A stretch of 64,000 nucleotides of DNA, taken from NCBI RefSeq assembly GCF_015706575.1, contig NW_024037060.1:2792515-2856514 (forward strand). Direction: 5' to 3'. Every line of letters begins with the position of its first letter. Within the stretch, counting starts at the first letter, position 1. A model generated the notes under the pieces. The model saw only the letters and a program-made list of their open reading frames with translations. It was not told the DNA's origin and did not search any database. This document shows, one piece after another, positions 418 to 50,956 of the stretch. The translations under genes and the position numbers were made by a program. The stretch is from Patiria miniata. Lineage: Eukaryota.

Positions 418-920
418 CTGTACAGGGTGAGTCAAAAACCGAAACCCAAATGTCGGGACCATTGTTTTAGTGAAGTTCTGCATGTAGCACTTTCAAAATC
501 TAGGACGTGAAAGCCCAATTCATCAGCTTTCTTTTAGTACGCGAATAATTCAAATCACTTATGTAATTTTTAAGTTTAATTTAAAACACAACCACCGTTT
601 TAAAGTTCTGTCCACAGATCACAAAAAGGTGTTCTTACAGCAGAACGAAAACAAATCACGTAGGGATGTGTGCGAATTGTTTCGTTTTGCTGAAAGAACG
701 CTCACTTTTTTTGTGATCTGCGTACAGAACTTTAAAACAGTGGTTGTGTTCAAAATTCCTTGAAAAGTACTTGAGTGATTTGAATGATTCTTGTACTAAA
801 AGAAAGCTTATGAATTGGGCTTTCATATCCTAGATTTTGAAAGTGCTACATGCAGAACTTCACTAAAACAATAGAGTCCAGACATTTGGTTTCGTGTTTT
901 TTTTTACTCACCCTGTACAG
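418..920. repeat. Foldback (near-perfect palindrome) of about 500 bp. The arms of about 250 bp lie at 418-650 and 690-920, are about 88% identical, and are centred near 669.
   Basis: The reverse complement of 690-920 aligns base-for-base with 418-650. The outermost 15 nt (CTGTACAGGGTGAGT) are identical. Those 15 nt also form the 3' end and the GT donor of the CUB exon. Confidence 0.85.
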
Positions 921-1311
921 GAGAAGAAACAAACTTTACCGTTGAAAGCATCCACTTGGAAGACCTTAAAGTGGAAGCCCCTGGCCACGTTGGACGTTCC
1001 AGTCACCAACTGCAACCAGGCCTGGTCGGATTCAATGGTGATATTTAACAGCCACCGGCCATAGCGAACTTCGTTCCGGTAGTAGTAGGACGCCACATCC
1101 AAATCAACCTCGCCCCCAGGCCCCATGAAGACACTGTCATCGTTAATGGACAGGTCCTCCAGGGCGAATATGATGTACTGGCCCGGGGAGGCGGTGAAGA
1201 CCCAGCGGCAGTCGAAGGCACTCGGGTAGCTCATCGGGTAGCTGGGGGAGTACAGATCGTAGACCGTGCCGTTCGATAGGTCCAACTCCGTCGGCCAACG
1301 GATGTCGCACC
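912..1311 (-). CDS. Exon encoding a CUB domain (GCDIRWPTELDLSNGTVYDLYSPSYP...FHFKVFQVDAFNGKVCFFSCTG) of the minus-strand mosaic gene. Phase 1 in, phase 2 out. The donor is GTGAGT at 911-906.
   Basis: The minus-strand translation matches the CUB consensus (C..., SPxYP, C.W, paired Cys). The AG acceptor is at 1313-1312 and the GTGAGT donor follows the exon. The frame is continuous with the upstream FZ exon. Confidence 0.8.
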
Positions 1312-1801
1312 CTACACAAGATCAAATCACCGATTTTTAGAGCAACTGTTTTTGTGCTTTGGATGTTCAACTGTTGTTGATGTGATCAACATGAGAAAGT
1401 TTGTACAATGATATGTAGCCTTGCAATTGACTCCCCACCTCAGATGAATTTCAAGAATCTGCTATAAGCACGAAACTGTGCTATTAGTGGGCGAGTACAG
1501 GATTGTTAATTACCTGCAGATTGCAAACTGCTTGTGACCTTGACAGGGGTCAGGGGTCATGGGTCAGGGTCATGTAATTATATATTTTTGTTTTAGAGCC
1601 AATTATTAATTGACAATGTCACTCTTTCCTCTGCTGTTATTTCTAAACAATGCAGATATCGAAAAAATGCTTTGAAAGATGACGAATCGATAACTGTTGT
1701 CAGGTTGCACAATTGATTGACATTTATTCGCAGCATGAATGGGGGGGGGGGGGGGAACCAGTAAAATAATTGAGACGGATATCCCCAAATCGGGACTATA
1801 C

Positions 1802-2158
1802 CCTCAAATGGTGACCTGCACAATTTAGACTCCTCCCCAGTCGTCGTCTCCGGGTAGCGGTCACAGAAGAAGTTCAGCTCCCTGCCGTCGTGGGCACCTG
1901 CGTAGGGGCCGCTGCACGCCACCTGCACCTCCTGGCAGAAGTCACTGCAGAGGTATCGCGGAGAACCGGACTTGGAGCACTCGGGGAAGAGATATGCGCA
2001 CAGAAACAGTTCAAGGTTCTCGTGGCAGTCCATGATGGCGCTGAAGTCCATGTAAAAATCGATGGCCTCCTCTGCTGTGCTGAAAATGTTGGGGTAAAAG
2101 GTCTGATTGTACGGGAGCAGGGACTGGCACTGGCTGGTCGATATGCTGGCACACTCGT
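1802..2158 (-). CDS. Exon encoding a Frizzled-type cysteine-rich domain (FZ/CRD): YECASISTSQCQSLLPYNQTFYPNIFSTAEEAIDFYMDFSAIMDCHENLELFLCAYLFPECSKSGSPRYLCSDFCQEVQVACSGPYAGAHDGRELNFFCDRYPETTTGEESKLCRSPFEG.
   Basis: The 10-Cys spacing and the conserved motifs (PYN.T, FLC..Y.P.C, PCR/LC..C) of FZ CRDs are seen in the minus-strand translation. The acceptor is ttttaag at 2160-2159. The only phase-compatible donor is G|GTATAG at 1801, which is weak, so the 3' boundary is less certain. Confidence 0.7.
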
Positions 2159-2689
2159 CTTAAAAGAGTACAATAATATTGTAGAGGTTAATACAATAAA
2201 GGCAGGACCATTTACATTTATCCAAAAAGTAACCTTCCGAAATATAATCAAGAAGCTTACTTGGATTTAACATCATACTGGTACGAAATACACAGTGAAA
2301 TTATTCCATCTGGCTTGCTGTCATTTAAGAAGAAATCAAGAAATGTAGGTGATATCCAACGATCAGTCAATTGACTGATTTGTTGAAAGAAAGAGTTCTA
2401 TTACATGCATAGACGAAATCGTGTTTTGTGATCAAAAGATTGTGCATGGTTGTTCACAGTTATTTTCTCTCGAAAAGTGTAATATCTACTGAGCTGAAAC
2501 TTCAACAGGTTAGGTTTTGAATACTCTTTTTAGTATTTTGATTGGTGCTTTAATTGGTAACGTACCAAATGCATGGAAAGCAAATGGTCATTTGTGCCTT
2601 TAATGTGACGCGCATGTCTCCTGTGTGAAGCTAAGAAACAAAACAGGGATTGTAAATGTTCTTAAAAGGCGGGAAACTGGTTAAACTCA

Positions 2690-2803
2690 CAACAGTTGTA
2701 TTCATCCCTAAACCGCGGGCAATCTATGATGTTATTGCAGGTGTCTGAATAGCGGAAGCACTGCGAACCGTAGTTGCAACTCAAGAATCCGTTCTCCTCA
2801 CAA
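2690..2803 (-). CDS. Exon encoding the third LDL-receptor class A repeat (DCEENGFLSCNYGSQCFRYSDTCNNIIDCPRFRDEYNC). Phase 1-1.
   Basis: The exon shows the six-Cys LDLa pattern with a D.SDE-like calcium cage (DCPRFRDE). It has an acceptor tttgcag and a donor GTGAGT. Phase 1-1 is the classic LDLa exon symmetry. Confidence 0.8.
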
Positions 2804-4577
2804 TCTGCAAATAAAAGTAGTTCCCGATCAGTAAAACGTCAAAATACTCGCCCTTTTTATCACAAACGAAAAAATTATGAGAGACACATGTCTTTTCTAG
2901 CAATATTCTCGCATTTGATGCAGGGTTTCTGTCATCAAAGTCTTGTGCTTTAATTCAGATCCTTAGCCACCTGGGTATGGATATATTCAAAGAAAGATGG
3001 TAGACACACACACTTCATCTGAATAAAAGTACCAAGAAGGAAACAGACGCAACCCAATACTTGAGCTTGTTAATATCAATTTTTCTATTATGAAACATGT
3101 ACTAAAATCTCATTTTTTTCGGGGGTGGGGGCTGTGTTGTGTTACTGTTAAAAGTGCGATATAGTTAATCTGTGGTATACTGTCAAGAATCCATGTTGTA
3201 ATGCTTCGGGGGACAGTAGATTTGTTGCTGTCATGACCAACAAAATACCACAATAACTTCTCATTTTGTATACCTTTAGCCTGTATGTGTTTTACAATTT
3301 CGGGGGATCAGTCCGACGGAAAGTTCGTTTGGACTGCAGTAAATAGAAATGCTACCCCCCAGAATATTTGTCAACCGAGTCGTGAATGATGGAGGTATTT
3401 ATTTGAAATGGCACAAGCCTCGGCAGGAACCATGATCCCCATAAATGTATCACGATCCGATAGCTTAGAGGTTGATATTCCTGACCCATTTTAAGGCTCC
3501 TAAGACGTCTATTACTATTCCCAGACCGTCGGGAACATGTTCCGTGTCGCCTTTGACCACCCCATGTCATGTTTTATTTATCGCTTGTTTATAAAATAAC
3601 TTTGATCTGCGATACCACTGCTTTAACATGTCCCCCGTGCTGGCTTTGTGCGAACATAAAAAGAAGCAGAACATTTTTTTAAAGTTCAGTTGGAGGAATG
3701 AAACACAAGACTAGCTCCGACGGCAAGGACCGTCGCTCAGGGAACGAACAGATCAATTTATTAGGCCTGCTGGGATTGGAAGTGGGGGCAAGTAGGTTGC
3801 CACAAATGCCAACCAGTCAACCTGTTCATCGTTGACTGCCTTAACAAAACGGTAGCTGCCAAAATGCCTTCATGCCCGGTCTGATTAAATTTAGTTGACT
3901 ACTTCTGACCAAATTAAACGCTCGATATTGTCATTGTAGGTTGGACTTGTCAAGTCGACAACTGGGATGCAGTTCGTCGTGGTGGGTCCCTTCGCTGGTT
4001 ACCAATAGTCACGCACATCGTCAGGGAGAGTGTCGATAACGTTTGACTATCCTAGGATGCGTTCCATTTACGCGAACAAACGCAAACGTAATTGCCAACG
4101 TTTCCCAGTTGGCTGTAAGATTGTACAAACAGATTTCAAACGTTGGCAACGTTTGCTTAATGCATGTGCACCCCTGATAACGTTTGACTATCGTTCGACT
4201 ATCCGGTTCGTTAGTAAAAACGTTATACATGCGCGCGCACCACTGATTATACTAGCGCCCATTGGATAAACACTCAAGATGCGTTAGCTTCCGGTTCCAA
4301 TGGTTCCAATGCTACTTAACCGAGTGGGTTTTGTTTATACTGAACTGACGTTGCACAACTAACCGGATATATTTGCGTTTTAACGCAATCGCGCAAGCGC
4401 AACATACTGTACGTCACGATTCAACAGCTATATTCAGTCAACTTTCCTTACTTGCACTTCCTCCCTAAATACATTACGGCATCTTTACGGTTTCCAATGC
4501 TTGTCATGAGGGTTTTATTTATATTTTTTTGTTTTATATATCAATTTTTTTTTTTTTTAATGATGACAGATACTTAC

Positions 4578-4694
4578 CGTCGCAATATCTTTCATCTTCG
4601 AAGTCATCGCAGTGCTCTATCCCATCGCATACAAAGGAGACCGGTAAACACTTTGTGTCATCACACGGGGACAAAAAGTCCTCTTCCAAGCAGT
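4578..4694 (-). CDS. Exon encoding the second LDLa repeat (DCLEEDFLSPCDDTKCLPVSFVCDGIEHCDDFEDERYCD). Phase 1-1.
   Basis: The LDLa consensus includes CDG..HCDD.EDE. It has an acceptor ...caccag and a donor GTAAGT. Confidence 0.85.
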
Positions 4695-5053
4695 CTGGTG
4701 ACGAAAAATTAGAGATATATCACAAATGGTTTGACTCATAATGCATCAAACGACGCATACAAAGGCGGGCTCATACTCGAACGCGAACGCCGCGAATTTA
4801 TGACGTCACGGAAAGTTTTCGCGCTGCGAATTCGCAAAGGTTGAGTTCACTTCAACTCCAGCGAGTTTCTCAGCGAATGTTTCCCGACATCAACTTCACT
4901 TCCAATTCGCATGCAGTATGAACCGGGCTTATTAAAGAGAAGATTTTTTTGTTTCAAGCCAAAGTCAGAGACCAAGCCGAGATTTGGCAATCATCATTTC
5001 ACCTATCAAATGCAGTTATTTAACTGTGGACAAGATACCTTCAACGAGTTATT

Positions 5054-5677
5054 TCGTCACCGACACCACGAACTGACACCCAGTGGTCAGCGTTGCAGAA
5101 ATACAAATCGGAGAAAAACGCTTTTAAAGGTTTGACAAGAATTTACTCAGTAAAATAATCCATCCATCTTAGAGGTTTTAGTATCACTTAACTTGAAAAT
5201 GCTTTAACAACTCAATTATAAACGTTAAATTGTGAAAATATGCTCAGTTAATTAGCAATTAAATGATTAAGATGGGTGTCAGTTCGTGAAAATTGACGTA
5301 ATTTGGGAGAGTGCGCGCACACACTGCGCATGCGTGCGCGCACTCTCCAAAAGCACGTCAATTTTCGTTTTCACGAACTGACACTCTCTAACGCTATTGC
5401 ATGCGCGCACTCTCCGAAAACACGCAAATTTTGGTTTTCACGAACTGACACCCTGTGCAGAGTCACTTCGTGGTAACAAAAACACAAGAATTGACCAATT
5501 TCTTGAAAATTCATTATTAAAATTTGCTTACTTTAGATGATTTTAGCAATTTTAACTTCGTCATGTTAAACTTCATGATACAAACTGCTAATATCGGCCA
5601 AAAAAGAAAATTTGAATTTTTAAATTTTTTGGTACACATGTGATGCAGAGGGTGTCAGTTCGTGGTGTCGGTGACGA
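5054..5677. mobile_element. MITE-like element of about 620 bp with 26-bp perfect terminal inverted repeats (CGTCACCGACACCACGAACTGACACC). It carries internal palindromic sub-repeats and lies in an intron of the mosaic gene.
   Basis: The TIRs lie at 5056-5081 and 5650-5675 and are exact reverse complements. Internal copies of GTGTCAGTTCGTG occur at about 5277, 5380 and 5440. ATTT on both flanks is a possible target-site duplication. Confidence 0.7.
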
Positions 5678-5732
5678 TTTGTTAACCATCTTGATAATAA
5701 GCGATTCAAAACATACAGAACATAGTTCTAAC

Positions 5733-5843
5733 CGTCGCATAACGATTCGTCACTAGCATCAGCACATGATGGAACGCCGTCACAAACCAACGCGTCAGAG
5801 ATGCATGTTCCGTCATCGCAACGCCACTCATCCGGTTCACAAT
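5733..5843 (-). CDS. Exon encoding the first LDLa repeat (DCEPDEWRCDDGTCISDALVCDGVPSCADASDESLCD). Phase 1-1.
   Basis: The LDLa consensus includes CDG...C.D.SDE. It has an acceptor ctctctacag. The donor G|GTTAGA is non-optimal, and an in-frame TAG immediately downstream forces that boundary. Confidence 0.75.
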
Positions 5844-7645
5844 CTGTAGAGAGAAAAAAAAACCAAACTGCTTAAAATATCAAATCTTTTTAGCGCCATT
5901 GGGCATTTGTCCAATTACAGACAGACGCTCCCTCGACACTGTGTGAACTCTTCTTTGTCTAACCATCAAAAATTTGTGTCGATTTTAAAACTAATATTAC
6001 TGCTCATTCCTTTAATCATCAATCTGGAAATTAGTTTTGTTTTTCAACAGACAGTTACTACTTAGGGGCGGATGTGAGCTGACTTTTAAACAAAGCTTAA
6101 CAAGACCTAATAATCTAGTAGGCCTATAACAACGTTCTGGAGCCAGAATTGTCGCGGGCATACTAAAGGCAAGCTTGGTTTCTTCACAAAGCCAGAGAGA
6201 GGGTTAAAAATTAAAAATTTCTCCAAAATGAAAATACTCATATACGCCTGAAACATTGTCGGACCGCAAATTATTCGAAATATTTAACTGAATATTCCAT
6301 AACTAAACGCAGGGGTTTTTTTGGTTGGATGTAGGCTAATTTTTGAATTGCTATAATAGAAAATTAGTACTTTAACAAACAAAATCACAAAATTCTCTGC
6401 GATATCTTTATAGCAAGTGTACTAAATCGGCTCAGCTTGCCAGTTCGTAAAACGTATAAAGGTTCATACACAGTGCCTCGGCGCAAATTGATAAAGGAGG
6501 TCATCCTTTTAGCCCTCGCCGATTTCAAAATGACAAAGTACTCAAGAAATTTCATCACCTTTTGATCCCCGGGATGAAATTTTGATTGAATCGGAAAAGT
6601 TAATTACAAAGTCAGAGCAAGCAACTGGGTGATTCATTTTTGCCTAAAGACGCGCCGACCGGAACTAATAATGTCCGGTAGAAATAAGAAGATGAAAAAG
6701 GGATCAAAAATTGTTTGAAACTGCCCGCAAACTGGGTATGGGCCGGGCAGGGTTAATCCCGTTTGATAACCGGACGTATCATTATGGCACGTGTTTTAGC
6801 CATTGGATCGAGGATCAAAAAACCCGATCGACAAATCGTCAAGTTCAAAGTTGTGTACAAATTAGTAATATATTGCTTTTACGGGTGTTGGACTAAGGGT
6901 CATTTTGATATTTTTTTTTCTGTCGCTCGGCTGCGAGACACAAATATGTGGAATCGTTCAGTTCAGTTGAGCCACCTTTACAATTTGTTTGCCAAGCCCT
7001 TAGTCAGAAAGTCTTCAGAGCATACGAGACGATTGCAGGATGCGGTTCAAGTGACAAGTGTGGCCGTATACAGTGTGTGACTATTACAAAATATGAGTCA
7101 CGATTGTGCACGGCCAATAGATTTTGGCAGCAAAAAAAATATTGGCTCTTTGTCGTGTTTCAATAGATGCAGGTGAATGTTTCTGTGACAAGGTTTGCTT
7201 AAACAAAGCAAGTAAAAGTAAGCACGTTTAGTCGTTTAAAGAAACATCCCATATCATACAATCGTACCAGTGGGATATTTTCATAAATTGTGAGCTGCAA
7301 CGCAATGTCGTAAAGTTGGGAAAGCTCACAGAAATGTTATATAATTTATTCAAAATTATATTACTCACGACGCGGGGGGACTCAACTGGGTATATAACAA
7401 CACTGCCTCACATTTGTCTTCCTAAAATGCTGACCAGGGGCACGGGGAGTTGGGGTTGAGGCCTCGAGCGGGGGAGGGCGTGCTTCCAAGCCCGCACCCC
7501 ACCTCTTACATACACGAATGAATTCAACATTGTGGAAGAAGTAAACTCCTTACACTCAAAAGCAAAATAATACAATGAAAATTGAGTGCTCAAATCCAAG
7601 GTCGGTTCTTCGAATGGGAATTAAATACGCTGGCCTCACACATAC

Positions 7646-7897
7646 CTAAAACTGACACAAGAAAGGTGCAGACAGCTTCGTTGCCGGACGGGTCGACGGC
7701 CCGGTACGTGACGTTGGTGGTAGTGCCCCGGGCAAACATGTCCCCGGGCCGGTGGGAAGACGTCAGGTTGACCCGCTCCGAGTTGTCCGTGGCCGTTGGC
7801 GTCTCCCAGCTCGCGCTGATGTTTTCCGCTTCACTCTCATAATGGACGGTAGCGGTGGCTTGACGTGGGCAGTTTCTGAAGACGGGCTTGACATTAT
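7646..7897 (-). CDS. Exon encoding a HYR (hyalin repeat) domain (DNVKPVFRNCPRQATATVHYESEAENISASWETPTATDNSERVNLTSSHRPGDMFARGTTTNVTYRAVDPSGNEAVCTFLVSVL). Phase 1-1.
   Basis: HYR hallmarks are seen: P..F..CP, W..P.ATDNS, SH.PG, VTY.A.D.SGN...C.F.V.V. It has an acceptor tatgccag and a donor GTATGT. The frame joins the TM exon upstream and the LDLa exon downstream. Confidence 0.8.
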
Positions 7898-8326
7898 CTG
7901 GCATAAAAATGGTGTAAAAACGTTAATCCATGGCCCCATTTGGCTAAATCTTTAATTGAGATATTGGTCCTTAATTGTTCTTATTAATACAAGCACCAAA
8001 TCGACAAAACGGTGGAGTCACAACAAATAATTTGAATTATCCGGATGGCAAAAAAACCCAACAACAACAAGGTATACTTGTATTTTCTACGCAAAATTTG
8101 TATCCACATTCTCTGAAGAAAAACTGGACATAAATTTAAGTAACTTGCCTACGTGAGGGTTTGCAATGAACCACGGGATATTGAGCAAAACGTACAGAGC
8201 AAACCCATGTACCGGGGGAAAAAATGAGCGGAGAACCAGTCAAAGCCATAATGTACATCATGGCTTTTGACTTAAAATATTTTTCATTGTTTGCTAGGCA
8301 TTTATTCTTATGCTTAGCAGCGTTGG

Positions 8327-8513
8327 AGTACTCGTACTCGTACTCGAGTACAACTCGAGTCCACTCAAGTACTCGGCCCGTACTCGACCATCAGTACTCG
8401 AAAATTATTTGGACTCGGCCCGTACTCGATTCTTTGTACTCGAATTTTGGCACGGACTCGTTGGTTTGGACTCGGTACTCGACCCCTGAACTCGGGAGTA
8501 CAAATCGAGTACA
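8327..8513. repeat. A dense cluster of about 15 copies of a (T)ACTCG(A) heptamer-like motif, including the palindrome TACTCGAGTA, within about 190 bp. A 20-bp higher-order duplicate is also present.
   Basis: The motif was counted directly in the sequence. GGACTCGGCCCGTACTCGA occurs twice. The supplied ORF 8224-8778 is an artefact of this repeat. Confidence 0.8.
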
Positions 8514-9644
8514 TTTCTTTTTTTATCGATTCCATTGCAACCTGGAACTCAAGTCGTTACCAGTGAGACCATATCGGAATTTTTCCCAAGTTAGGATTTT
8601 GCTTGGGAAAAATTTGCTTAGTAAATTTTGTACCCAAGGCTCCATAAAATTTTGGTCCCACGACGTTGGGTCACAAGCAACAAAAGACAACGACTCTAGA
8701 CACTACTCAGAGATTGCCACAAAAAAGGTCATAAAAAGTAAGTCAAGAGCTATTCGTCTTTTTGAAAATCGATCATGAAAACAACGTCTCAATTGTGGAT
8801 CTCTTTCCTTTAATTTGAAGGCGATACTCCTCCAATTATGATTCTGTCTCTTATTTCTCCTGTCATTTTGAGCTCCGCGCCCCCGCTATGGAACCATGTT
8901 TACAGAAGCTATCCGTAATAGTCCCCCACCACCACCATCCCCCAAAATACGAAGCGTCGCCAGACACAACATCCTCGAGTTACAGAGCACTCGCTGCAAT
9001 ATTACCACTTCACCTGGGAAGACTTAATGAACCAGGGGTCAGACGCTCGCAACATCCTCCCCGACTCCAATCAAGCACGGCATGCCAAAAATGTTATCAC
9101 CGTGATTCTCGTAATCATGTTATTTATACCGTGCGTCATGTTGTCTCGGAATGAGATTCTGACAGAGGCAACATGATTGAAGCGTAGGAAGTCGTTGGTG
9201 TATATTTGGCATTAAAGGAGCACGGGAAGATTGTATTTTTTTCTTGAGTATGAGACTAAGAAGAGGATGATGATCACAATTCATCATTTTGAGTTCGTTC
9301 TTGGTAGCAAGGTCACGATATTGCGTTTGAGCTTTTTGTATATTTTCTGGTTTGGGCTATTGGGCTTTTTACACAGTTCCGTAGAAAGACGGGCCGGGGT
9401 AAAGACAGAAAATGCCCGAATTTGTTCAGTCAATAAATTCATTAGAAATTCATTTAGAAAGTGCCAGGAATGAAGCCGAACGCCATTGTGTACAGTATTA
9501 CTCCATCAGGAACAGCGCCCCGAGCGTCAAATGATTTCAAGCCATGATCCCCGGGTAAAAAAATGCTATTATATATGCTACTGGACAATTTCAATCTTAC
9601 TGGGAACAAACCGCAATCTCGTTTACCAAAAGAAACAAACTCAC

Positions 9645-9840
9645 CTCTTGTAGCGAAAACTAAAACTATAGCGATGACTACGATCAGAATGATGAGGGCC
9701 ACCAACACAGCAGTGACGACCTTCAACTTGAAGAACCTAGGTGATTTGGGCTGTCTCGTCTTAACGTTCGCCCCGTTCGCCTCGAACGCTTTGGTGTTGT
9801 TCGGCTCGTCGTCGATCTTGAAGTTCTCGACAGCTACACC
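9645..9840 (-). CDS. Exon encoding a basic juxtamembrane stretch plus a transmembrane helix (…KSPRFFKLK VVTAVLVALIILIVVIAIVLVF ATR). The cytoplasmic side is positive-inside, which gives the mosaic protein type II (N-in) topology.
   Basis: A 22-residue hydrophobic segment is preceded by K/R-rich sequence. It has an acceptor taatttcag and a donor GTGAGT. Phase 1 out matches the HYR exon. The start codon and the N-terminal exon(s) were not located and probably lie upstream of 9840. Confidence 0.65.
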
Positions 9841-12800
9841 CTGAAATTAGAGGAGAAAAATCATCTATGGCTTCATTATGCACTACGGAAACTTGGGTGT
9901 CAAACTCAAACGGCATGGTGTTTACCATTCGTGATCATTCTCAACGCCGTTTTAGATGTCTCGAAGAACGTTCGCCTCGTTCGCCCCGAACGCTTTGGTC
10001 TTATTCAGTGCGTCGTCAGTCTTCTGCAGGGAGTAAGATCTCAGTGGCATATTGCACATGCACTTCAGAACTTTCCACGGTGTTTACTTGAATTCAAACG
10101 GTGTGGTGTTTAATCACAGCCTAACCATTTGTCTAATATAGAAAAAAACGCTGCGTTCATTTCACATCGCCGTTTCAGCATTTTTGCAGTTTGCGTAACA
10201 TGTTCACTCAATACGCTGCAGACATCGTCGGTAGGGCTTAGGAGCGCCCGTTCGGCTTCAAAGGTGTCATAAGTTGATTCCCAACTTAAAGCAATTTCGA
10301 CTGTTCACTCGAACATAAAATTACTGAGTCTTGTATCAAGACAGTACACCATGAACTGTGAATTAATTATCAAATGGGCAGTCAGTATAACTGCTGTTGA
10401 CGTAAGGCTGTTTTAGAAGGTGCTTAGATACCTGGTATTCAGACGACATAGCTCGTCACCCTAGGATGGTAAAACATGCATATGTCTTGGAAGGGCAACA
10501 TTCTTTCTTGTTTTAATGTCATGCTCAGTTGGCAAACGTAGCCTTTATGGCTTAGTGAGTGACCGACATGAACTCCATTTTTAGCCATAAGGAGAAGAAT
10601 CTGCTGGGCCGATCGAAACTCTCAGACCCTTGGCGAGTTATTACCAACGCAGGCTTAGCGAATTTTCCCTAGATGCAACTGTACCCAACGCCTTAATCGA
10701 GTTTGTAAAATCCTATTTTGCACACTCAATTTGCGTCACTTGGCACAAAATAAATCTACGCTGCAGTGAACAATATCCACAGCTTTAGTGCAAGAAAAAT
10801 GAAGAAAAAAGTAATTGCCGCATTCGATCACGCTTGGTTTGCTCACTTCACGGCCGCGCCTCGTCAAACACCAAAGGGTCGTTCTTTTATCACCCCTGGA
10901 CTGAACCGTTGACTGAAATTGCTCCTAGCCATCTATTGCGTATTTGACTGAATTTAAGGATACGAATTTTTATTTATTAGCTTTTTTTCTGTCGAGTTTG
11001 TATTATCCGGTCTCAGGGGTAACTCATCACTCACCGGAGGCCGCAAGTTCAGATTCTGGAAATTCCCGAAGGATCCAGAAGAATTTACATTGTTTCGCTG
11101 CGAAGCTTGGTTACATTAGAACATTTTCCAATTCTTGCGGATCAACTTGGATTTTTTTTCAGAGCAGGTGGAAGTCTTTGCTTGGGAAATACTAAGCAGC
11201 TTTTTTTGTGGCTTTCCGCGCATTGAAATTACGATACCGCCTTGAAATTAGCATATGGAACTATGGAAGACAGAGTTCAAGAATTCGGAGTTCGGGCACA
11301 ACTACAGGGTGGTGCAAAAAGAAGGAAACTCACTTTTGACAGGAATTTTAACCTACTTACTTTACTTATTTGAACAGTTTTGTTTTTTTATAATGTAGTG
11401 AAATACAGCTCTCCAACCATACGTGCTGAAAAAAAATCTTATAAAAAATGGCAAGAATAGTGTTACTATGCTAATTTGAATACAAGTCACCAAAATCACT
11501 GTTTTCCACGTGTAAGTCTAGTGTAGTGTTTTTTTTTGTCTTCAAATCAAGCTCCGGAGCTCAGTCAATGGGATGAAATAAAGTCGTCCGTGGGCAAATA
11601 GGTTTGGCACACGAAATTCTTAAAATACCATATATTTCAGAGACAAAATATGCTTTTCCAATTTTTTTTCCCGTCAATTATGTTTAAAGATCAACATTTT
11701 AATATCAGTAATTGACTTTCTGAAATATACTCAACAAGTAGGTGACAATTGCACCACCATGTACAACAAGATAAGCCATGCTACACTTTTATTTTTTGGC
11801 ATCCATAAAAGTTGGAAAATACACGTACGTCTCTAATGTCGTGAATGAATGCATCATTATGTTATTAACTTCAAATGTCACATGTGCATTATGTTATTAC
11901 CTTAACATACTACTTGTGCAGCAGTGCATGCAATACAGTCATGTTCATACATAATTATTTTTGGCCAGATAATACTCGACAATAATGTTCTATCCAATGA
12001 TGAACGGCTAAAGACCAACGAACTGGAACACAAACGGTAAAGCAGCAACTTCATAACTTTCCAAGATTTCCACCATATTGCAATTCAACACAATCCTGCC
12101 CTATTCCATCCGTTAATTGTTCATCAATTTAAAGTGCGTTTATTTTGACAATTAAGTATACAATTTCTGGAAAAATAAATGGCTTTGAATTCCTGGGTCC
12201 GGAACCAAGTACATGTACTTTGAGTCATTCATCAAGAGATGGTGTAGTTACCTGAACAGATAAGTCACGTCATACAGAACTCAACACAGCGTGCTTTAAT
12301 ATACATTGCTCCTTGGTCTACTGGTTATAGATACTTAAAAGGAACTTATGGTTTGGCGTTTTATATTAAAAAAAGATGACTCGTTATATCGAGTTTATTA
12401 CAGAGGCAAGACATTGTGAGTAATTCTTGCAAAATCTAAATCGCTAAAGCTTACACCAATATGATGGAAAGTATTAAAATTTAGAAATATTGGTCATCTC
12501 TGCCTTTTTTATTGACACTGCCTTATACAAAACTATTTACATACTCATTTTTTAAAATTAAATAATGGCTATGACCTAACATTTAAAAACCACCAATTTG
12601 GAGCGATACTTATAATTATTACGAATAAAAAATAAAATAAGCTAGACTCTTGATGATAATGTTTGCTTTCTGAATACAATATGCCATTTTTTTCCCCAAT
12701 TCTGCAAGCATTCAAGAGTTTTTATTGTTTACCGTGTGTGGCAATTTTGTTGCATTTTTTTTAAAATTGATTAAAATTTTACAAGGTAAGAGGCTCAATG

Positions 12801-25600: not shown

Positions 25601-28600
25601 CCAGCCCATTAAATTATGAGCAATATGACTTCTCGCCTCTGGTTTCTTTCTTTTTTTCCTCCCCCTTTTTTTGTTTTTCAAGGGGGGGGGGCGCCTCCTT
25701 GCCCCCCCCCCGCGACGCTAAGGACCCTGTCTAGCACATCCCCGTTTTATTCCACAGATATTTCGGTCTATCAAAAATCAGAAATGCACGTCATTTGTGT
25801 CTTTGGCAATTCCAATATTCCTCACAATTATAGTTTGTATATACATGTATACACTGCTCCCAGAAAACACTCGTCTAACTTTCTTTGACAATGAAAAACA
25901 ACTTGTAGGCCTACCTCTATAAAAGACGAATATTGACTGTTTCTTGAGAACTAGCTTGGAATCTATTTGTTACGGAAAACACATGCTGATCGCTTCAGAT
26001 TTTGATTAGATCTAAACCATGAATTGGAGATTTTCCTCAGAAAAAAAAATATAATTTTCAATTTCGGTACCCAACCCCTGCAACGATAATAGGGACCGGA
26101 TCCAGGCTCCATTGGGTTGCAGACAAACAAAAAGAAAAAAAGGTTTTTTTTTTTTTGGGGGGGGGGTAAAATAAAACATACGAAAATTCGTTGGATGAAA
26201 AGATGATGGGAAATGCCTAAAATAGAAAGCACTGACAGTAGACACAAAGACTTATGTCTCGTGGGCTAATGTCACAAGATGTCAATGTCACAAGACAGGA
26301 ACTGACTCCCAACGATACCGTCACTTTTAAGCATGGTTCATCACCAGACCTAGACCCACAACGTAGGCTCTGAAAAGTGAAATGTGCCATTTGAATAAGT
26401 TTATATATTTTGAAGTTTTCCAGTTGATGTACATTATGTCCCTCAAGTCAAGTGTATCCTGACACCTAGAGTGACTTCTTCAGTATGGCAAATCATCGGA
26501 ACTTTTAAAAGATCTCAGAATCCCCAAATTATGAAGTAGCCTTAATCTTATCAGTGGTTTCACAGTCGCAATTTTACCAAGCGAGCACTAGAGCCATCCT
26601 ACTTCATCCCGAACCTACACGTTTGAGCCACGAGATTATCACGACGGGGGAATATACCCCTCTTGCAATTTGGTGTTCGTTCGGCAGATTTCATGACAGC
26701 TCATGCAAACTTGATGTCGAGAAAAAAATAATATGACAGTCCTTCGAGGCTAAAGACCGTCTGACCGAGTGGGCGATTTCAGTCTTGACTTCTATGCAAC
26801 CAAAAACAATTTCGCCACATCATCTTTTTAAGGTCTTTCGACCTTTATCCTCTTGGGGCGGCCCCTCATGAGAGACATCTCAGACAGAAAAATAAAATCT
26901 GCCGGTGTATCAGAGTGTACCTTAATGTACACAATATGCTTGGTGTTATTATGATGGCTGTCATGACTGGAATGCCTGTCTGTGACAGAGATGAAACACG
27001 GTGCCCTTGACTTCCCAGGTGATGCAGGGTGCTTAATTAAAATAAATCCTCCACGCATCCCTGGCGATTGCAGGAGGAGAGACGAGCTCCAGGCGACCAG
27101 TGTAGACATGACAGACTTCATTATTAGTTCGTCTTATGTATAGTAATAAGAGTCAGAGTGGTTGAGTTTGACTTAGGTTAATATTATTTCTGTCCCTGCC
27201 CCTCCGACTTTGTGGGAGCACGTCAAGCATGAGACACTCGCCAGACGCGCATGGAAAATCAGAAAATAAGCATGACGTAACGGATATTACCAGATTTTTA
27301 TCCATTTTAAGAGGTAAGCAAATTTTTAAAAAGCTACTTTCACCAAGTGAAATTCAAAGTGTGTGCGTACGCATTTCAGTGGAATCAGGTTCAAATCCTG
27401 GCCCAGCCCATTTCTTTTTAATGAATCCAAAAGTTGTTTGAATCAAAGACGGTAAATGCAGTAACTACGTATACCCAATGGCCCAATCAGTCTCATTTCA
27501 GTGGGAACAAGTTCTAAAACAATGCCCACAATAGCCCATCCCCAGAGGCAGTTTTGTTCATCGATTGCTGGTTGCATGTGGGCTTATGAAAAATAGCTCC
27601 GTCACTATCACCACCTACGTACTAGCAAAAAGGTCGGGAAATACATTTTGTACATCACAAAATATTAATAGGAAACGACGTATCCGGGGGCGAATTGGCA
27701 GGGGGATGGCACGGACCTCAACTTATAGAATTCCCTAAGTGCCACCCAACCAAGCACAAACAACCCAATGGAAACTAGTTACGCCACTGATTATGGGATT
27801 GGTGATATAATTTCACATACTGTTATATACGTAAGGCAAAAGGGGCGTGGCTCTCCTTCCCAGCCTGTTTAGTTTTATACTCCTCTTTGAGCCTACCTTA
27901 CCCTTCAAACACCCATTAATGGGTGCTTAAAGGGTAAGGCACCCTTCGGAATATGGGAATTGACCCCAGTCACCCATTCACACCCATAATAATGACTGCA
28001 AACAAAATCGCATTGGATGTTGTAACGCTTGCTCAATCCTCAATGCGTTGAAAAATACAACGCCCGATTACTTGATCTGCATGACTTTCGATTCGCGGAA
28101 TGGGATTTTTGCCACACCGTCAAACCGGCTCTGCAGTTTATTTATCGGTGCAAGATGGTGCTGCGATATAAATTCCGGAATAAAAAAAACATCACACGCT
28201 TAACTTGGCGCGATGAAAAGAAAACTGACCCCGACTTGGCTGAGCCGGGCGGCATTGCTCTTTGAATCCCACTGCCTCTTTCACCGCCAGGGTGAACAGA
28301 AGGTTACCTTTATTCCTAAACACAAGTTCCGGTAAAAAAAAAACCACCTTAAAATTAAGTTAGGGGTTTATGTTCACCACGTTGCCCTTTGCCTAAGATG
28401 GGGGCGAAAGGTTCAACTTCCCATGTGACGAACAACGCAATGTGTTATAGACAAGCTGGTCAGAATGACATTTGAAGAGAAATTTGGGACAAATAAATAA
28501 ACAGCCATGACTTACCTCGTATTTATACCCGTCCTGTCGAGCCATGGTAAAAACCCTCGCACTCCCAGCAGCCGCACCACTTCGAAATGAACTAATAACG

Positions 28601-29683: not shown

Positions 29684-30224
29684 GCAAGCCTACTGGTGCC
29701 TACGGAGGTTTGAAATGTAAATAAAAACATGCAACATAATACACTGAAAAAATAAATTCCGAATAAACAACAACACAGTTTGCCAGTTTGAGAAATATAA
29801 CCAACGAAAATGAAGCTATAGGGTTGCGGTCGCGACTGGGGTTGACCGAAGTATGCAAACCCATTTCGCGCTCATTTGAAGTGATGATTGAAGTCCCGGT
29901 GCGCCCTCTTGTGTGACATGGTTTGTCCACTCAACCGAGGTGGGCAAGACGGTCAGTTGTGTTGTCCAGCCGTTTGTCCAGCCAGTGATGTCTGGACATC
30001 GGTAGACCATGGCAGGTCTGATCACGCAAGCCATTCCCCAGGGAATAGCGCTGCAACAATTTTAACCTGTCAGATTGTGTATAATTATTTAATGAAGTTT
30101 ATGGGGCAAGATCGGCGAAATAATAAACAAGCTGGTTTTCTCACACTTTTAAATGACGTCGCACTCCAATTTGGTGATTTTTTTTGGGTTAATCTTTAAG
30201 GTCTAACAGCCTGTAATTTAGCCA

Positions 30225-30860
30225 GACAGCCAGTACGCTGGCAAGCCAAACTACCAGGGGAGACAGCCAGTCAGTCAGTCAGGCAGCCAGCCAGCTAGCC
30301 AACCAGCCAGCCAGCAACCAACCAACCAGCCAGCCAGCCAGCCAGCCATGCATCCGGGGAGTCGGCTAGCCAGCCAGCCAGCCTGCCTGCCAGCCTGCTG
30401 CAAGCCAGTGAGCTAGCCACCGAACTGATGACCAACTCTTTACCAACTATACCAGCTAAGTCAGCTAGCCTGCGAGCTAGCCAATTACCAGCCAAAGTGT
30501 CACCCAGCAAGCAACCAATTAGCCAGCCAGCCAACAAACCAACCTTTCAGTTAGCCGCCAGGCAACCGGCCAACCAGCCTGCCAGTCTTAAAAAGCCCGA
30601 TTGTCATTATCAAGCCAACCATATAGCAAACCTGCCAACCAGTCATCCTCAAGCCAGCAGCCAGCCAACCAGCCGCCAAACCAGCGAGCAACAAGCCAAC
30701 AAGCCCGCTCACCAGCCAACGAGCCAGCCTTACGGTCAGCCAGCCAGCCAGCCTTCCAGCCAGCCTTCCAACAAGTCAGCGAGCCTGCCAATCAACCATA
30801 CCAGCCATCCAGCCAGCCAGTCGTCGTGCCATCCAGCCAGCAACCATCTGAACAACCAAC
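30225..30860. repeat. An imperfect tetranucleotide microsatellite (CCAG/CCAA)n of about 640 bp.
   Basis: The sequence shows continuous CCAGCCAGCCAACC-type periodicity. The supplied ORFs here, rich in P, A, S and Q, are repeat artefacts. Confidence 0.9.
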
Positions 30861-33486
30861 CCGCGGTGACCCAATACGCTTACATCACTAGAGTCGAACT
30901 TCTGGCCCGAGTAATGACAACATCATGATTGCAATTTAGGTTAATATCTAACCCACATAATCCTTGTCATCGTATTAATTGCTTTTGCAGTATTAACTGG
31001 ATCAGTTCTGATGTTATGGCCTTTGCTCCTGTCAGTGGAGTGGGGGAGATTGCAACGGGATGGTGATTTTAAAAGCAAAATCGGAAAGTTGAGTAATAGA
31101 AGCACAATCGGGACGGTGAAAATGGGTTAAATGGGACGAAGATTCGATTTTGCAACGGGCAAACTAAACCCTGGCCACGAGCCTGCTTTTATGTACTAAC
31201 CAAAGACAAGTGAGTTTTTTCCCTTCGATACTTCGATGTCGATATTCGGGATGTCAAAATGATTACTGTTCAGAAAAAAGAACAATGAATCGATTAGTTA
31301 AACCCCCCCCCCAAAAAAAAACACTGCCCAAAACTGTAGCAGTGGATTTTAGCAAAAGACGACACTTTTTTCGATATTCATGTCAGTACTGGTCAGACAT
31401 AAATTAGAAATAAACTACGGTTCATAGGCCCTTTGCAATTAGCGGGGGGGGGGGGATAGCAAATTGTATAAGGACAATAACCAATTGTAGATAAAACAAA
31501 ACAATTAGTTAGTTGTAAAAAAAAACGCTAATAACCTTCGGTCCAAATGGTTTAATAAGCTTCTGTAGATATTAAATATGCAGAAAACATCAAATTCATT
31601 ACCAACCCCAAACATTAACAGTACGTACTGCTCCATACAGCTCTTACACTTCAATAAATCAGGAACAAATCCTGGTTCCAAAAGAATTTTTTTAAATGTG
31701 GTTAAAACACTGAACACTTGCGTGTTAAAACAGAAACTGTTGATTTTGGGCCGCGCTGAGCATTTTAGTTGACACAGCTGAAATTTAGTTCTTAGGAAAA
31801 CACAGGTTAAGGGCGCACAGTGAGGAACATCGAGTGGGATTACATAGTTGGCAGACATCAATGTCCAAGGAACATTCTAAGTGCTCAGTAGGACTATGTC
31901 AATTAGCTTGTAAATTCGCATTTGATTGCTGTCTTCAGGGTTCCACTGTCCTCATTAATTCATTTCTCGCGGAAAGATAACAACTTAATCTTTCTTGAAA
32001 GGATAATCTTACCGATGCTCAGGGAAAGCTTGGGCAAGGTGTATGTCTGTATAAGGCCTTCCTGCATGCAGTGATCATAGGTTTTTGCACGACGTGGTTG
32101 ACTGAACTTTCATATTGTCATTATGTCTAAACTGTACTACATGTATTTCATTAATACGGCATCGAGGTGATGATGATGATCATGGTGTGGATGATAGTGA
32201 TAACGGGGATTGTTTTGTGTGATTGGAAAGCGCGCACAATTTTTCGATCAGGATGATCACGAAAGAGATGATGTACGGTCGCCCATTTTTGGAAGTGATT
32301 TCGGCGGGTTGGAAGATTTGGGGCGTCTTGTCTAATCTTAATTCAATGTGAATTTGTCGTTTTTTTCTTGACTGATTTGCCCTTGACAATATTATTGTCA
32401 GTCTTTTCGAATAGGCAGTAAATCTATGGAACGCCTCCTGATTTAAATTCCGGTTCCAAGCACACTCAATTAATTATCAGCAAAATAACACTCGGTGTCC
32501 ATGTTGAAAGTGAATTATCTCCATAAAAATTAGTGAGTCGTTTCGTGAACTAATTGGCCAAAGCCGCGTTGTGGGTAATTAACGACGAGCCACAATTAAT
32601 CTGCCATTCTTTTATAGTGAGTGTAAACTCTCGGGAAAAACAACGAGCAATTAATTTATATAGAATGTCATTTCCGAAGATGAGTGTTAGGTAGATTTTT
32701 TTCAAAATCCTCCTTTTTCCCCACAATATCCTGGACTATATCAACTGGATTATTATCCTACTGGACACCATCTATCAATGAGGGCGCTATTCAAAACCGA
32801 ATTCATGGTCATTGACTGACAATCGCTGTACACGTTCCATCCAAGGGACATCAACAATAAACAGCCAATCGCGAAAAACAAGGTTTTTGCCACAAGTAAA
32901 TTAGTGTGGGATTAGTTTAACATAAAGTGTTTTTTTTTAATTTTTAATCATGGTTTCGTTATTTTCTGTGATTGCCAAATTTCCAGTGGGGGCGACTGAG
33001 GGGAGGGGGGGGGGGGGGGGCGACCATTTTTTTTTTTATGGGGGTGCCCCCCCCCCCGGCCCCCCGTAGCTACACTGCTGTTATACCCATAGCCCAATTT
33101 GATGACATCATCGTGTTTCACAGGTCACCGTACAAATAGATACCGTGTTTAAAATGTTGTTGTGATAGCGCCCGTTTGAAAGTCAAAAGGAAGAAAGGAA
33201 CTCCAGGCTAAGAAGAAATTGACGTAATTGTAATTCCCAAGGTTCACGGTTGTCTGCTCTTTAATATTGAGTCCAGTTAATTTGCCGAAACTCGTTTTAG
33301 GATATTATTGGCCATGGACATTAAAGGAAAACTAGTCGTTTTGTTTTGAGATCGAATAGAGGAAATTCAAATTGGCACTGAAGCCGACTGAAGCGGAGCG
33401 GGCTTCAGTGCCGTCTTTCGTAAAGAGGATTAAACAAAAAACAAAAAAAAGGTCTTCAATAAAACTTTGAGCACTGAGAGTCTCGG

Positions 33487-33712: not shown

Positions 33713-33887
33713 ATGGCCGGTTCAAGTTCATCAAAATGCTCGTTTGCACTTACGTTGGTGTGCTTGTTTTTCCAGTTCTTCGTGTCGTGTGCTGGCCAAG
33801 GAGATGATGTTATCACTGCTCAGGAAATAAACGCAGACACTTTCGAGCGGAAGATGGAAGCCGGCAATTTTCTCCTTGTCAATTTCA
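33713..33887 (+). CDS. Exon 1 of a thioredoxin-domain transmembrane protein (PDI/TMX family-like). It encodes the start codon, a signal peptide (MAGSSSSKCSFALTLVCLFFQFFVSCAG) and the first part of Trx domain 1 (VITAQEINADTFERKMEAGNFLLVNF).
   Basis: The start context is gaaaaATGG and a hydrophobic signal peptide follows. The sequence aligns to the PDI a-domain N-terminus (…NF…LLVEF). The donor is GTAAGT. Confidence 0.75.
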
Positions 33888-34302
33888 GTAAGTCAGAAGA
33901 TGATAATTGTTTAGTCTGTGGATACCGGACTGCCGGATGTGGCATGAAGTTTTAATTTGTACACAGCTAACTTAGTGTCAATGAGAGCGTAGATATGTTC
34001 TTTGCTCTACGATAAGAGCATTATTATACAACAATTTTCTGGGTACAACTTAATGCCTAATTAAATGCCTTAACAACCCCCCCCCCCCCCAAAAAAAAGG
34101 GGGGGGGGGCCCTGAAGCACATTTCATATTTTGTCAAACAAAGATAAAATGCCATATATTCTCTATTCAAACCAAATAAATTCCTGTCTCCTGATTCATT
34201 GCAACCGAGTCAGAGGTTTGTCCTGCTTTTAATAGAGGATAAGTTTGGAAATCTGACACTATTAAATGCCTTACCATTCTTTTCATCCATTGACTTCATC
34301 AG

Positions 34303-34491
34303 TTGGACCAGGCTGCAAGAACTGTAAAGATTTTACGCCCATTTTCAACCAAGTCAACACTGAGCTGTTGAGGGCGAAGTCGGACGTTACAGCAGCGGTC
34401 ATCAACAATTTGGACATCGTCCAGCATTACGATCTCCAGAAGTTACCATCACTGGTCTTTTTCAGGAAAACTGTCCCAATACTCTATGAAG
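34303..34491 (+). CDS. Exon 2. It carries the Trx active-site region IGPGCKNCKDFTPIFNQV…LPSLVFFRKTVPILYEG, a CxxC written as CKNC.
   Basis: The region aligns to PDI WCGHCKALAPEY…YPTIKFFRNG. It has an acceptor catcag and a donor GTACGC. The phase is consistent with exons 1 and 3. Confidence 0.75.
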
Positions 34492-42430: not shown

Positions 42431-42840
42431 GTAAGCAACTGATTTTTTTTTATGTAGTATTATGTTACACTAAATGAGGAGAATTACTGAAAAATAAATC
42501 TTGCAGATGAAATGGTTGGATTGCAAACATATTTTTGGACGGTTTCTGGCTTGTCGTGCATTTGACATTCTCCCGGCCAGCTACTGCCAAAATCAGTTGA
42601 ATTCCAACAACTTGGATTGATGGTACAAAAGAGATCCAGTTTTTAAATTAATTGTTGCAAATTTTTTTTCAAAATTTTATTTGCTTTGTAAAATTTGTGA
42701 AAAAAAACTCTTTGCGTCTGTGATGGTTCAGTTATTCACTCACTGCAAAGCAAAGGCACTTTGTGAGATTCAATTCAGATAGACCACAAAAGGAACACTG
42801 ACTGTGTGCATTATAATTTTGAAAGTTGAACAAAGAAATT

Positions 42841-50764: not shown

Positions 50765-50956
<192 letters not shown>

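What the first reader, a model, noticed from the sequence alone, without database searches (positions are those of the whole stretch)
912..9840. Type II membrane mosaic protein TM-HYR-LDLa x3-FZ-CUB with one domain per phase-1 exon, partial
Seven exons on the minus strand join in frame, all at phase-1 boundaries. They give a positive-inside TM anchor followed by HYR, three LDLa repeats, a Frizzled CRD and a CUB domain. The gene continues beyond coordinate 1, so the C-terminal domains are unknown, and the N-terminal cytoplasmic exon lies upstream of 9840. FZ+LDLa+TM(type II) is the corin/MFRP/TMPRSS-type logic, but a HYR domain in this context is unusual. The symmetric phases make every domain exon skippable without a frameshift.
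Basis: partly seen in the sequence, partly recalled or inferred. Interest (0 to 1): 0.55.

Follow-up and report, generated by a model that had tools for sequence, protein, structure and literature searches.

The report
Sea-star membrane protease gene, front half
The finding is the correctly read 5' half of an already annotated bat-star (Patiria miniata) gene for a membrane-anchored mosaic serine protease ("corin-like"); it is an ordinary, uncharacterised member of a well-known protease family that carries an echinoderm-typical extra HYR module.

Summary
Seven minus-strand exons (9840-9645, 7897-7646, 5843-5733, 4694-4578, 2804-2691, 2158-1802, 1311-940) have AG/GT borders. They join at phase 1 into a 506-codon open frame encoding TM anchor, HYR, three LDLa repeats, FZ and CUB. 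Pfam supports every domain; LDLa3 is sub-threshold. With a 10-codon ATG exon at 28545-28516, the translation equals residues 1-516 of RefSeq XP_038058130.1, [quoted passage not shown], 1293 aa.

Same-architecture orthologues exist in Acanthaster planci (77%) and in Asterias amurensis and A. rubens (62%). The Acanthaster gene has the same intron positions, with 15 consecutive phase 1-1 single-domain exons.

Corrections:
- The CUB exon ends at 940, not 912; the 912 donor lies in a MITE.
- HYR+FZ+protease also occurs in a sea-urchin model.
- No isoform evidence for exon skipping was found.

Ordinary and already annotated; low interest.

The parts
28516..28545 (-). First coding exon (ATG; MARQDGYKYE), phase-0 donor GTAAGT, Kozak-like ACCATGG. 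The 5' flank up to about 28794 is conserved with Acanthaster.
   Evidence: The block 28794-28511 is 84% identical to the Acanthaster locus.
9645..9840 (-). Exon 2 (196 nt): cytoplasmic tail plus signal-anchor TM (VVTAVLVALIILIVVIAIVLVFA). Phase 0 in, phase 1 out.
   Evidence: There is no Met in the exon and an in-frame TAA lies 9 nt upstream of the acceptor. Matches RefSeq residues 11-75.
7646..7897 (-). Exon 3 (252 nt, phase 1-1): HYR domain.
   Evidence: Pfam HYR 3.1e-15, positions 2-81 of 81. 70% and 54% identical to the Acanthaster and Asterias orthologues.
5733..5843 (-). Exon 4 (111 nt, phase 1-1): LDLa repeat 1.
   Evidence: Pfam Ldl_recept_a 40.5 bits.
4578..4694 (-). Exon 5 (117 nt, phase 1-1): LDLa repeat 2.
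   Evidence: Pfam Ldl_recept_a 27.7 bits.
2691..2804 (-). Exon 6 (114 nt, phase 1-1): degenerate LDLa repeat 3. It has six Cys but an incomplete acidic calcium-binding motif.
   Evidence: Pfam 17.6 bits, below the 24.1 cut-off, full-length match. 82% and 74% conserved in the orthologues.
1802..2158 (-). Exon 7 (357 nt, phase 1-1): Frizzled cysteine-rich domain with 10 Cys.
   Evidence: Pfam Fz 2.1e-14. 100% match to P0008 residues 275-392.
940..1311 (-). Exon 8 (372 nt, phase 1-1): CUB domain of the two-cysteine type. Donor AACG|GTAAAG at 940.
   Evidence: Pfam CUB 3.1e-7. The RefSeq junction AFN|ETCG and the Acanthaster exon of 372 nt agree.
423..915 (.). MITE-like palindromic element in the intron after the CUB exon, flanked by TA.
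   Evidence: Inverted repeats 461-574/759-872 (114 nt, 91%) and 578-627/708-757; sequence read.
9950..10112 (-). Partial tandem duplicate of the intron/exon-2 junction. It is a pseudo-exon (KTDDALNKTKAFGANEANVLRDI*) with an in-frame stop and no good donor.
   Evidence: Not conserved in Acanthaster.

Best explanation
The region holds coding exons 2-8 of a single Patiria miniata (bat star) gene, RefSeq XP_038058130.1. The ATG exon lies at 28545-28516. The gene encodes a 1293-aa type II transmembrane serine protease (TTSP).

Shown: the protein has a short cytoplasmic tail and an N-terminal signal anchor. Its extracellular stem is HYR, LDLa x3, FZ, CUB, LDLa x7, a CUB-like domain, LDLa and SRCR. 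It ends in an S1 protease domain with an intact His/Asp/Ser triad. Almost every stem module sits on its own phase 1-1 exon, the classic exon-shuffling layout. The whole architecture is conserved in sea stars of two orders.

Inferred mechanism: the protein is made as a cell-surface zymogen. Another Arg-specific protease cleaves it at GQMPR|VVSG. The catalytic domain stays disulfide-tethered to the stem, and the stem modules dock substrates or matrix. The S1 pocket carries Asn189 and Val226 instead of Asp189 and Gly226, invariant in four sea stars. The enzyme therefore probably does not cleave after Arg/Lys, so it is not a functional corin and is unlikely to auto-activate.
For: - Exon joins and phases.
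- Pfam domains.
- Exact identity to residues 1-516 of XP_038058130.1.
- Full-length orthologues: Acanthaster planci 77%, Asterias amurensis 62% and an A. rubens model in the same 90% cluster, with the same domains and lengths of 1293-1304 aa.
- The Acanthaster locus has identical intron positions and phases for exons 1-8, and 15 consecutive phase 1-1 single-domain exons.
- HYR is as conserved as its neighbours: 70%/54% against FZ 76%/58% and CUB 73%/47%.
- Protease features: TAGHC, NDIALL and GDSGGP are invariant. The alignment to plasma kallikrein puts Asn at Asp189 and Val at Gly226.
- Asp189 confers tryptic specificity, and Asn189 is found in chymotryptic KLK7 (PMC3014083).
Against: - No transcript data were available. 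The gene model is a computational RefSeq prediction, although four species agree.
- The protease half lies outside the window and could not be read from this genome's DNA; the look-up for P0008 failed.
- Substrate specificity, activation and the role of each stem domain are inferred from sequence only.
- The CUB-like domain at 784-895 is weak (Pfam E=0.05).
- No expression or functional data were found in the literature.
Confidence: 0.88

Rival explanations
1. It is a true corin orthologue: a pro-hormone convertase that cleaves after Arg, as the RefSeq name suggests.
For: RefSeq names it 'atrial natriuretic peptide-converting enzyme-like'. It shares the type II anchor, FZ, LDLa, SRCR and a C-terminal S1 protease with corin (corin architecture from PMC9138375).
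Against: - It has one FZ rather than two, LDLa arranged 3+7+1 rather than 5+3, and extra HYR and CUB domains.
- It has Asn189/Val226 instead of Asp189/Gly226.
- The best solved-structure matches for the protease domain are plasma kallikrein, factor IX, enteropeptidase and TMPRSS2 at about 1e-36; the listed matches include no corin chain, so this is no test of closeness to corin.
- The only near-full-length match to the C-terminal half is a fish enteropeptidase-like protein (29% over 95%).
- To my own knowledge, ANP/BNP-type natriuretic peptides are vertebrate hormones.
Confidence: 0.07
2. The exons belong to two or more genes that were joined artificially, for example a TM-HYR gene fused to an LDLa-FZ-CUB-protease gene.
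For: There is no transcript evidence here. An older sea-urchin model with nine HYRs fused to a CUB-LDLa-FZ-protease (P0186) is not reproduced by the current, shorter RefSeq model. HYR-protease fusions can therefore depend on the gene model.
Against: - The same join is predicted independently in four sea-star species, with matching lengths and no stops.
- Intron positions and phases are identical in Acanthaster.
- Without the TM exon the downstream exons would have no start codon, signal peptide or anchor.
- HYR is conserved at the same level as its neighbours.
Confidence: 0.03
3. The symmetric phase-1 exons are used for regulated domain skipping, producing a family of isoforms with different stems.
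For: All six domain exons in the window, and 15 consecutive exons in Acanthaster, are multiples of 3 nt with phase 1-1 borders. Removing any of them keeps the reading frame.
Against: The clusters looked up for the four species listed only one full-length model each (1293, 1293, 1304 and 1304 aa), none labelled as an isoform. By established knowledge of exon shuffling, phase 1-1 symmetry is the general signature of shuffled extracellular modules and does not by itself indicate alternative splicing.
Confidence: 0.15

Closest known systems
Corin (vertebrate CORIN; sole member of the corin subgroup of TTSPs)
   Same: N-terminal cytoplasmic tail and single-pass type II anchor. FZ and LDLa modules in the stem. 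An SRCR-like domain immediately before a C-terminal S1 protease. A zymogen activation site after Arg.
   Different: One FZ instead of two. LDLa arranged 3+7+1 instead of 5+3. Additional HYR, CUB and CUB-like domains. Asn189/Val226/Arg215 in the S1 region instead of Asp189/Gly226/Trp215. No evidence of 1:1 orthology.
Enteropeptidase (hepsin/TMPRSS subgroup of TTSPs)
   Same: The C-terminal cassette CUB-LDLa-SRCR-protease is collinear with it: a fish enteropeptidase-like protein aligns at 29% over 95% of residues 784-1293. To my own knowledge, both need another protease for activation.
   Different: No SEA or MAM domain. It has FZ, HYR and a long LDLa array. The S1 pocket is non-acidic.
MFRP (membrane frizzled-related protein)
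   Same: Type II membrane protein combining CUB, LDLa and FZ modules.
   Different: To my own knowledge MFRP has no protease domain and ends in FZ. Here FZ is internal and the protein ends in an S1 protease.
Echinoderm FZ-linked mosaic proteases
   Same: Same domain vocabulary in the same phylum. Examples are the S. purpuratus models XP_030839167.1 and UniParc UPI0005EFE055 (HYR x9, CUB, LDLa, CUB, LDLa x2, FZ, protease) and the Lytechinus [CUB-FZ-protease] x4 protein. Against the sea-urchin model, the LDLa-LDLa-FZ block is 36% identical, HYR 45% and the protease 34%.
   Different: They are not collinear with the sea-star protein. The sea-urchin protease has Asp189. No TM anchor is seen in the partial model. 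These are paralogous mosaics, not orthologues.

Membership tests
[quoted passage not shown] | [quoted passage not shown] | tested here: met
   Hydrophobic residues 51-73. Flank charge +6 (N side) against +3 (C side). Hydrophilic N-terminus. All Cys-rich modules lie C-terminal of the TM. Definition from PMC10376093.
[quoted passage not shown] | C-terminal trypsin-fold (S1) protease domain with a His57/Asp102/Ser195 triad | tested here: met
   Pfam Trypsin 3.9e-49 at 1057-1287 of XP_038058130.1. TAGHC, NDIALL and GDSGGP are invariant in three orthologues. This domain lies outside the window.
[quoted passage not shown] | Zymogen activation site directly before the protease domain | tested here: met
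   The sequence CGRQGQMPR|VVSGRD aligns with R|IVGG of plasma kallikrein. Cleavage itself cannot be tested here.
Corin subgroup | Two frizzled domains (Fz1, Fz2) | tested here: not met
   One Fz stretch by Pfam and by domain phmmer. Corin definition from PMC9138375.
Corin subgroup | Eight LDLR repeats arranged 5+3 around Fz2 | tested here: not met
   By cysteine pattern and exon map the arrangement is 3 before FZ, 7 after CUB and 1 before SRCR; 9 stretches pass Pfam.
Corin subgroup | Scavenger-receptor-like domain before the protease | tested here: met
   SRCR_2 at 27.3 bits against a cut-off of 27, residues 960-1049.
Corin subgroup | Tryptic S1 pocket (Asp189) able to cleave pro-ANP after Arg | tested here: not met
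   Asn aligns to Asp189 and Val to Gly226. Both are invariant in four sea stars. Among 172 protease domains fetched, only these four have Asn at 189. Enzyme activity cannot be tested here.
Enteropeptidase | SEA and MAM domains in the heavy chain | tested here: not met
   No SEA or MAM hit at E<=0.1.
MFRP | No protease domain; C-terminal FZ | tested here: not met
   FZ is internal and a Trypsin domain is present.
HYR domain (PF02494) | Full-length profile match above the Pfam gathering score, with the two conserved cysteines | tested here: met
   56.7 bits against a cut-off of 21.7, profile positions 2-81 of 81. Cys in NCP and in VCTF.
Exon-shuffled extracellular mosaic genes (phase 1-1 module exons) | Each module on its own exon, bounded by phase-1 introns | tested here: met
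   Six of six domain exons in the window. Fifteen consecutive exons in the Acanthaster orthologue.

The most novel reading that the evidence does not exclude
Sea stars possess a distinct TTSP subgroup outside the four described ones. Its stem combines an HYR (hyalin-repeat, adhesion-type) module with FZ, CUB and LDLa. Its catalytic domain has switched from tryptic to non-tryptic specificity (Asn189/Val226) while keeping an Arg activation site. That would make it an obligate downstream member of a cell-surface protease cascade, possibly acting on extracellular matrix or the hyaline layer.
Probability: 0.3. Interest if true: 0.35.

Novelty: new member of a known kind. Interest (0 to 1): 0.18.

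Why it matters
It matters little beyond annotation. [quoted passage not shown]

Three points are of modest value:
- The 'corin-like' product name is misleading. The protein has one FZ, extra HYR and CUB domains, and a non-acidic S1 pocket.
- It is a very clean example of one-domain-per-phase-1-exon architecture, conserved across sea-star orders.
- The conserved Asn189/Val226 pocket behind an Arg activation site gives a testable prediction of a non-tryptic, non-autoactivating membrane protease in echinoderms.

Tried and rejected
- Whole-protein word-index search. It returned only HYR-only hits and missed the identical RefSeq protein. The exhaustive FZ-exon search found it, and a later search with P0008 itself did list it.
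- Exact-product look-ups of a window ORF and of P0008 found nothing, so the 3' half of the Patiria gene could not be read as DNA. The Acanthaster locus was used instead.
- The donor at 912 was rejected. It gives a 400-nt exon, lies in a MITE terminal repeat, and disagrees with RefSeq and Acanthaster.
- The upstream duplicate of exon 2 (9950-10112) was rejected as a real cassette exon. It has an in-frame stop, only a weak GTTCTT donor, and is not conserved.
- Paralogous exons elsewhere in the window: none.
- A nested gene in the 18.7-kb first intron: no convincing coding signal or Pfam hit.
- A profile search with the C-terminal half for non-asteroid orthologues carrying HYR returned only generic S1 proteases at 26-38% identity, and none had HYR.
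- Rfam and tRNA scans found nothing in the region.
- Literature searches for HYR with TTSP, for corin in sea stars, and for the accession numbers found nothing.
Full report
**What is in the sequence**

The window is intron-rich eukaryotic DNA of about 40% G+C. On the minus strand I located the seven exons by their splice-site contexts and joined them by script.

| Window exon | Coordinates (minus strand) | Length (nt) |
|---|---|---|
| 1 | 9840-9645 | 196 |
| 2 | 7897-7646 | 252 |
| 3 | 5843-5733 | 111 |
| 4 | 4694-4578 | 117 |
| 5 | 2804-2691 | 114 |
| 6 | 2158-1802 | 357 |
| 7 | 1311-940 | 372 |

Each exon is preceded by AG and followed by GT. The first ends in phase 1 and all the others are multiples of three. 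Every junction is therefore phase 1, and the joined frame is open for 506 codons.

**Domain support**

| Domain | E-value | Note |
|---|---|---|
| HYR | 3.1e-15 | full-length match |
| Fz | 2.1e-14 | |
| Ldl_recept_a | 2.2e-14 | |
| CUB | 3.1e-7 | |

Scanned one by one, the first two LDLa exons pass the Pfam cut-off (40.5 and 27.7 bits against 24.1). The third scores 17.6 bits; it has six cysteines and matches the full profile length, so it is a degenerate LDLa.

The hydrophobic segment VVTAVLVALIILIVVIAIVLVFA has a net charge of +6 in the 15 residues before it and +3 after it. The N-terminus is hydrophilic. Together these support an N-in, type II anchor.

**Identity of the gene**

An exhaustive HMMER search with the FZ exon found a 100% identical match in a 1293-aa protein (P0008). 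The cluster look-up names it XP_038058130.1 / A0A914A384, [quoted passage not shown]. The window is therefore bat-star DNA.

'MARQDGYKYE' plus my 506 residues equals residues 1-516 of that protein exactly. The ten N-terminal codons lie at 28545-28516 on the minus strand, in an ACCATGG context with a GTAAGT donor. The first coding intron is thus 18.7 kb. This exon has to exist, because exon 2 has no Met and an in-frame TAA lies 9 nt upstream of its acceptor.

The RefSeq protein continues AFN|ETCGDDEF. This fixes the end of the CUB exon at 940. It also sits in the terminal inverted repeat of a TA-flanked palindromic MITE-like element at 423-915.

**The whole protein**

Pfam on the full sequence gives HYR, Fz, CUB, nine Ldl_recept_a stretches, SRCR_2 (27.3 bits against 27) and Trypsin (3.9e-49, residues 1057-1287). 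By cysteine pattern and exon map the order is:

TM - HYR - LDLa x3 - FZ - CUB - LDLa x7 - CUB-like (784-895, Pfam CUB E=0.05 only) - LDLa - SRCR - protease.

**Conservation**

Full-length orthologues with the same Pfam set exist in three other sea stars:
- Acanthaster planci: XP_022106148.1, 77% identical, 1293 aa.
- Asterias amurensis: XP_071788766.1, 62% identical, 1304 aa.
- Asterias rubens: XP_033624814.1, 1304 aa, in the same 90% cluster as the A. amurensis protein.

HYR is 70%/54% identical to the Acanthaster and Asterias sequences. That is the same range as FZ (76%/58%) and CUB (73%/47%), so HYR is a stable part of the protein.

I fetched the Acanthaster locus and mapped its protein exactly onto the DNA. 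It has 24 coding exons. The first eight have the same boundaries and phases as in the window: 30, 196, 252, 111, 120, 114, 354 and 372 nt. Fifteen consecutive exons, from HYR to LDLa11, are single-domain phase 1-1 exons. SRCR is split over three exons and the protease over four, with phases 1|2|1|0.

DNA comparison shows that all eight Patiria exons and the 5' flank (28794-28511, 84%) are conserved. A few collinear non-coding blocks in intron 1 are conserved as well.

**How it probably works**

Shown:
- The catalytic triad motifs TAGHC, NDIALL and GDSGGP are invariant.
- The protease domain is preceded by CGRQGQMPR|VVSG, which aligns with the R|IVGG activation site of plasma kallikrein.

Inferred: the protein is a surface-anchored zymogen. 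It is cleaved after Arg1055, and the catalytic domain is held to the stem by the usual pro-peptide-Cys122 disulfide.

The same alignment puts Asn at chymotrypsin position 189, Val at 226 and Arg at 215, where tryptic enzymes have Asp, Gly and Trp. All three are invariant in the four sea-star sequences.

Asp189 confers the Arg/Lys preference, and Asn189 is the residue of chymotryptic KLK7 (PMC3014083). I therefore infer a non-tryptic P1 preference. From that I infer that the enzyme cannot activate itself at its own Arg site and needs an upstream tryptic activator. This is sequence inference only.

**Comparison with known families**

[quoted passage not shown] They fall into HAT, hepsin, matriptase and corin subgroups according to their stem modules (PMC10376093). 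The protein meets the TTSP definition.

Corin is TM-Fz1-LDLR1-5-Fz2-LDLR6-8-SR-protease (PMC9138375). The sea-star protein has one FZ, a different LDLa arrangement, extra HYR and CUB domains, and no Asp189. It fails the corin-specific tests, and the RefSeq name reflects domain resemblance only.

Its C-terminal CUB-LDLa-SRCR-protease cassette is collinear with enteropeptidase (29% over 95% of residues 784-1293 to a fish enteropeptidase-like protein). SEA and MAM domains are absent, however. MFRP shares the type II anchor with CUB, LDLa and FZ, but to my own knowledge it has no protease domain.

**Is HYR unusual here?**

Against the described TTSP subgroups, yes. No paper in the library combines HYR with a transmembrane serine protease. 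Outside sea stars, no HYR+Trypsin protein appeared.

However, the FZ search led to a sea-urchin cluster. It contains a partial UniParc model (P0186, 1477 aa) with HYR x9, CUB, LDLa, CUB, LDLa x2, FZ and Trypsin. It is not collinear with the sea-star protein and has Asp189. The current RefSeq model for that locus is shorter and starts inside a CUB domain.

The HYR+FZ+protease combination therefore looks like an echinoderm theme rather than a unique event. HYR is, to my knowledge, an expanded module in that phylum.

**Exon skipping**

Any of the phase 1-1 exons could be removed in frame. The clusters looked up for the four species listed only one full-length model each, none labelled as an isoform. 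Phase 1-1 symmetry is the general signature of shuffled extracellular modules. The idea is untested, not supported.

**Verdict**

The object is an already annotated, uncharacterised member of a well-known protease family. Interest is low. The only mildly notable points are the misleading 'corin-like' label and the conserved non-acidic S1 pocket behind an Arg activation site.

Noticed in passing
window 9950-10112 (-): A tandem partial duplicate, about 165 nt, of the intron/exon-2 junction; its 57-nt core is 84% identical. It reads KTDDALNKTKAFGANEANVLRDI* behind a good acceptor, with an in-frame stop and no good donor. It is absent from the Acanthaster locus, so it is a lineage-specific pseudo-exon.
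   Followed up: yes
window 423-915: A MITE-like palindromic element flanked by TA, inserted 24 nt downstream of the CUB exon. Its terminal repeat supplies a consensus GTGAGT donor 28 nt past the real one, so it is a potential cryptic splice site.
   Followed up: partly
window 5054-5677: A second MITE-like element with perfect 28-nt terminal inverted repeats and internal sub-repeats, in the intron between LDLa1 and LDLa2.
   Followed up: no
window 27066-26982, 19991-19901, 15078-15007, 13379-13172, 10739-10709; 5' flank 28794-28546: Non-coding blocks that are collinear with, and 70-94% identical to, the first intron and 5' flank of the Acanthaster orthologue. They are candidate regulatory elements of the protease gene.
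   Followed up: no
window 48966-51406 (+): Exons of a subtilase (Peptidase_S8, 1.5e-10) gene, including a GHGTHCAG His motif and a [11 protein letters not shown] Ser motif. It looks like a proteinase-K/PCSK9-like neighbour gene.
   Followed up: partly
window 53579-54987 (-): Two long overlapping ORFs with the best coding score in the window. They encode Ig-like ectodomain sequence, a Thr/Pro-rich stalk, a TM segment and a cytoplasmic tail. This is an unannotated-looking single-pass membrane protein with only marginal Pfam hits.
   Followed up: partly
window 58865-58999 and 60844-60924 (+): Exons resembling guanine deaminase (FVDTHIHAPQY...; Amidohydro_1 4.9e-7).
   Followed up: partly
window 33758-33943 and 34311-34442 (+): Exons of a thioredoxin-like, signal-peptide-bearing protein (Thioredoxin E=8e-4, below the cut-off).
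   Followed up: no
window 30200-30900: A Pro/Thr/Ser/Gln-rich low-complexity repeat that is open in several frames (PT repeat 8e-6). The 30-32 kb stretch shows strong local strand skew.
   Followed up: no
window 42840-42912 (-): A tRNA-like match just above the Rfam gathering score (30 bits against 29) that ARAGORN does not call. It is probably a tRNA-derived repeat or pseudogene.
   Followed up: no
proteins P0005, P0006, P0014: The closest FZ domains outside sea stars sit in giant multi-FZ proteins: 12 FZ in Ptychodera flava (4406 aa) and 15 FZ in Branchiostoma (6305 aa). They also occur in a Lytechinus protein built of four [CUB-]FZ-protease units. All are uncharacterised.
   Followed up: partly
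protein P0186 versus P0074: The current S. purpuratus RefSeq model XP_030839167.1 (647 aa) starts inside a CUB domain. An older partial UniParc model extends it N-terminally through two CUB/LDLa units into at least nine near-identical HYR repeats. The current model is probably 5'-truncated.
   Followed up: partly
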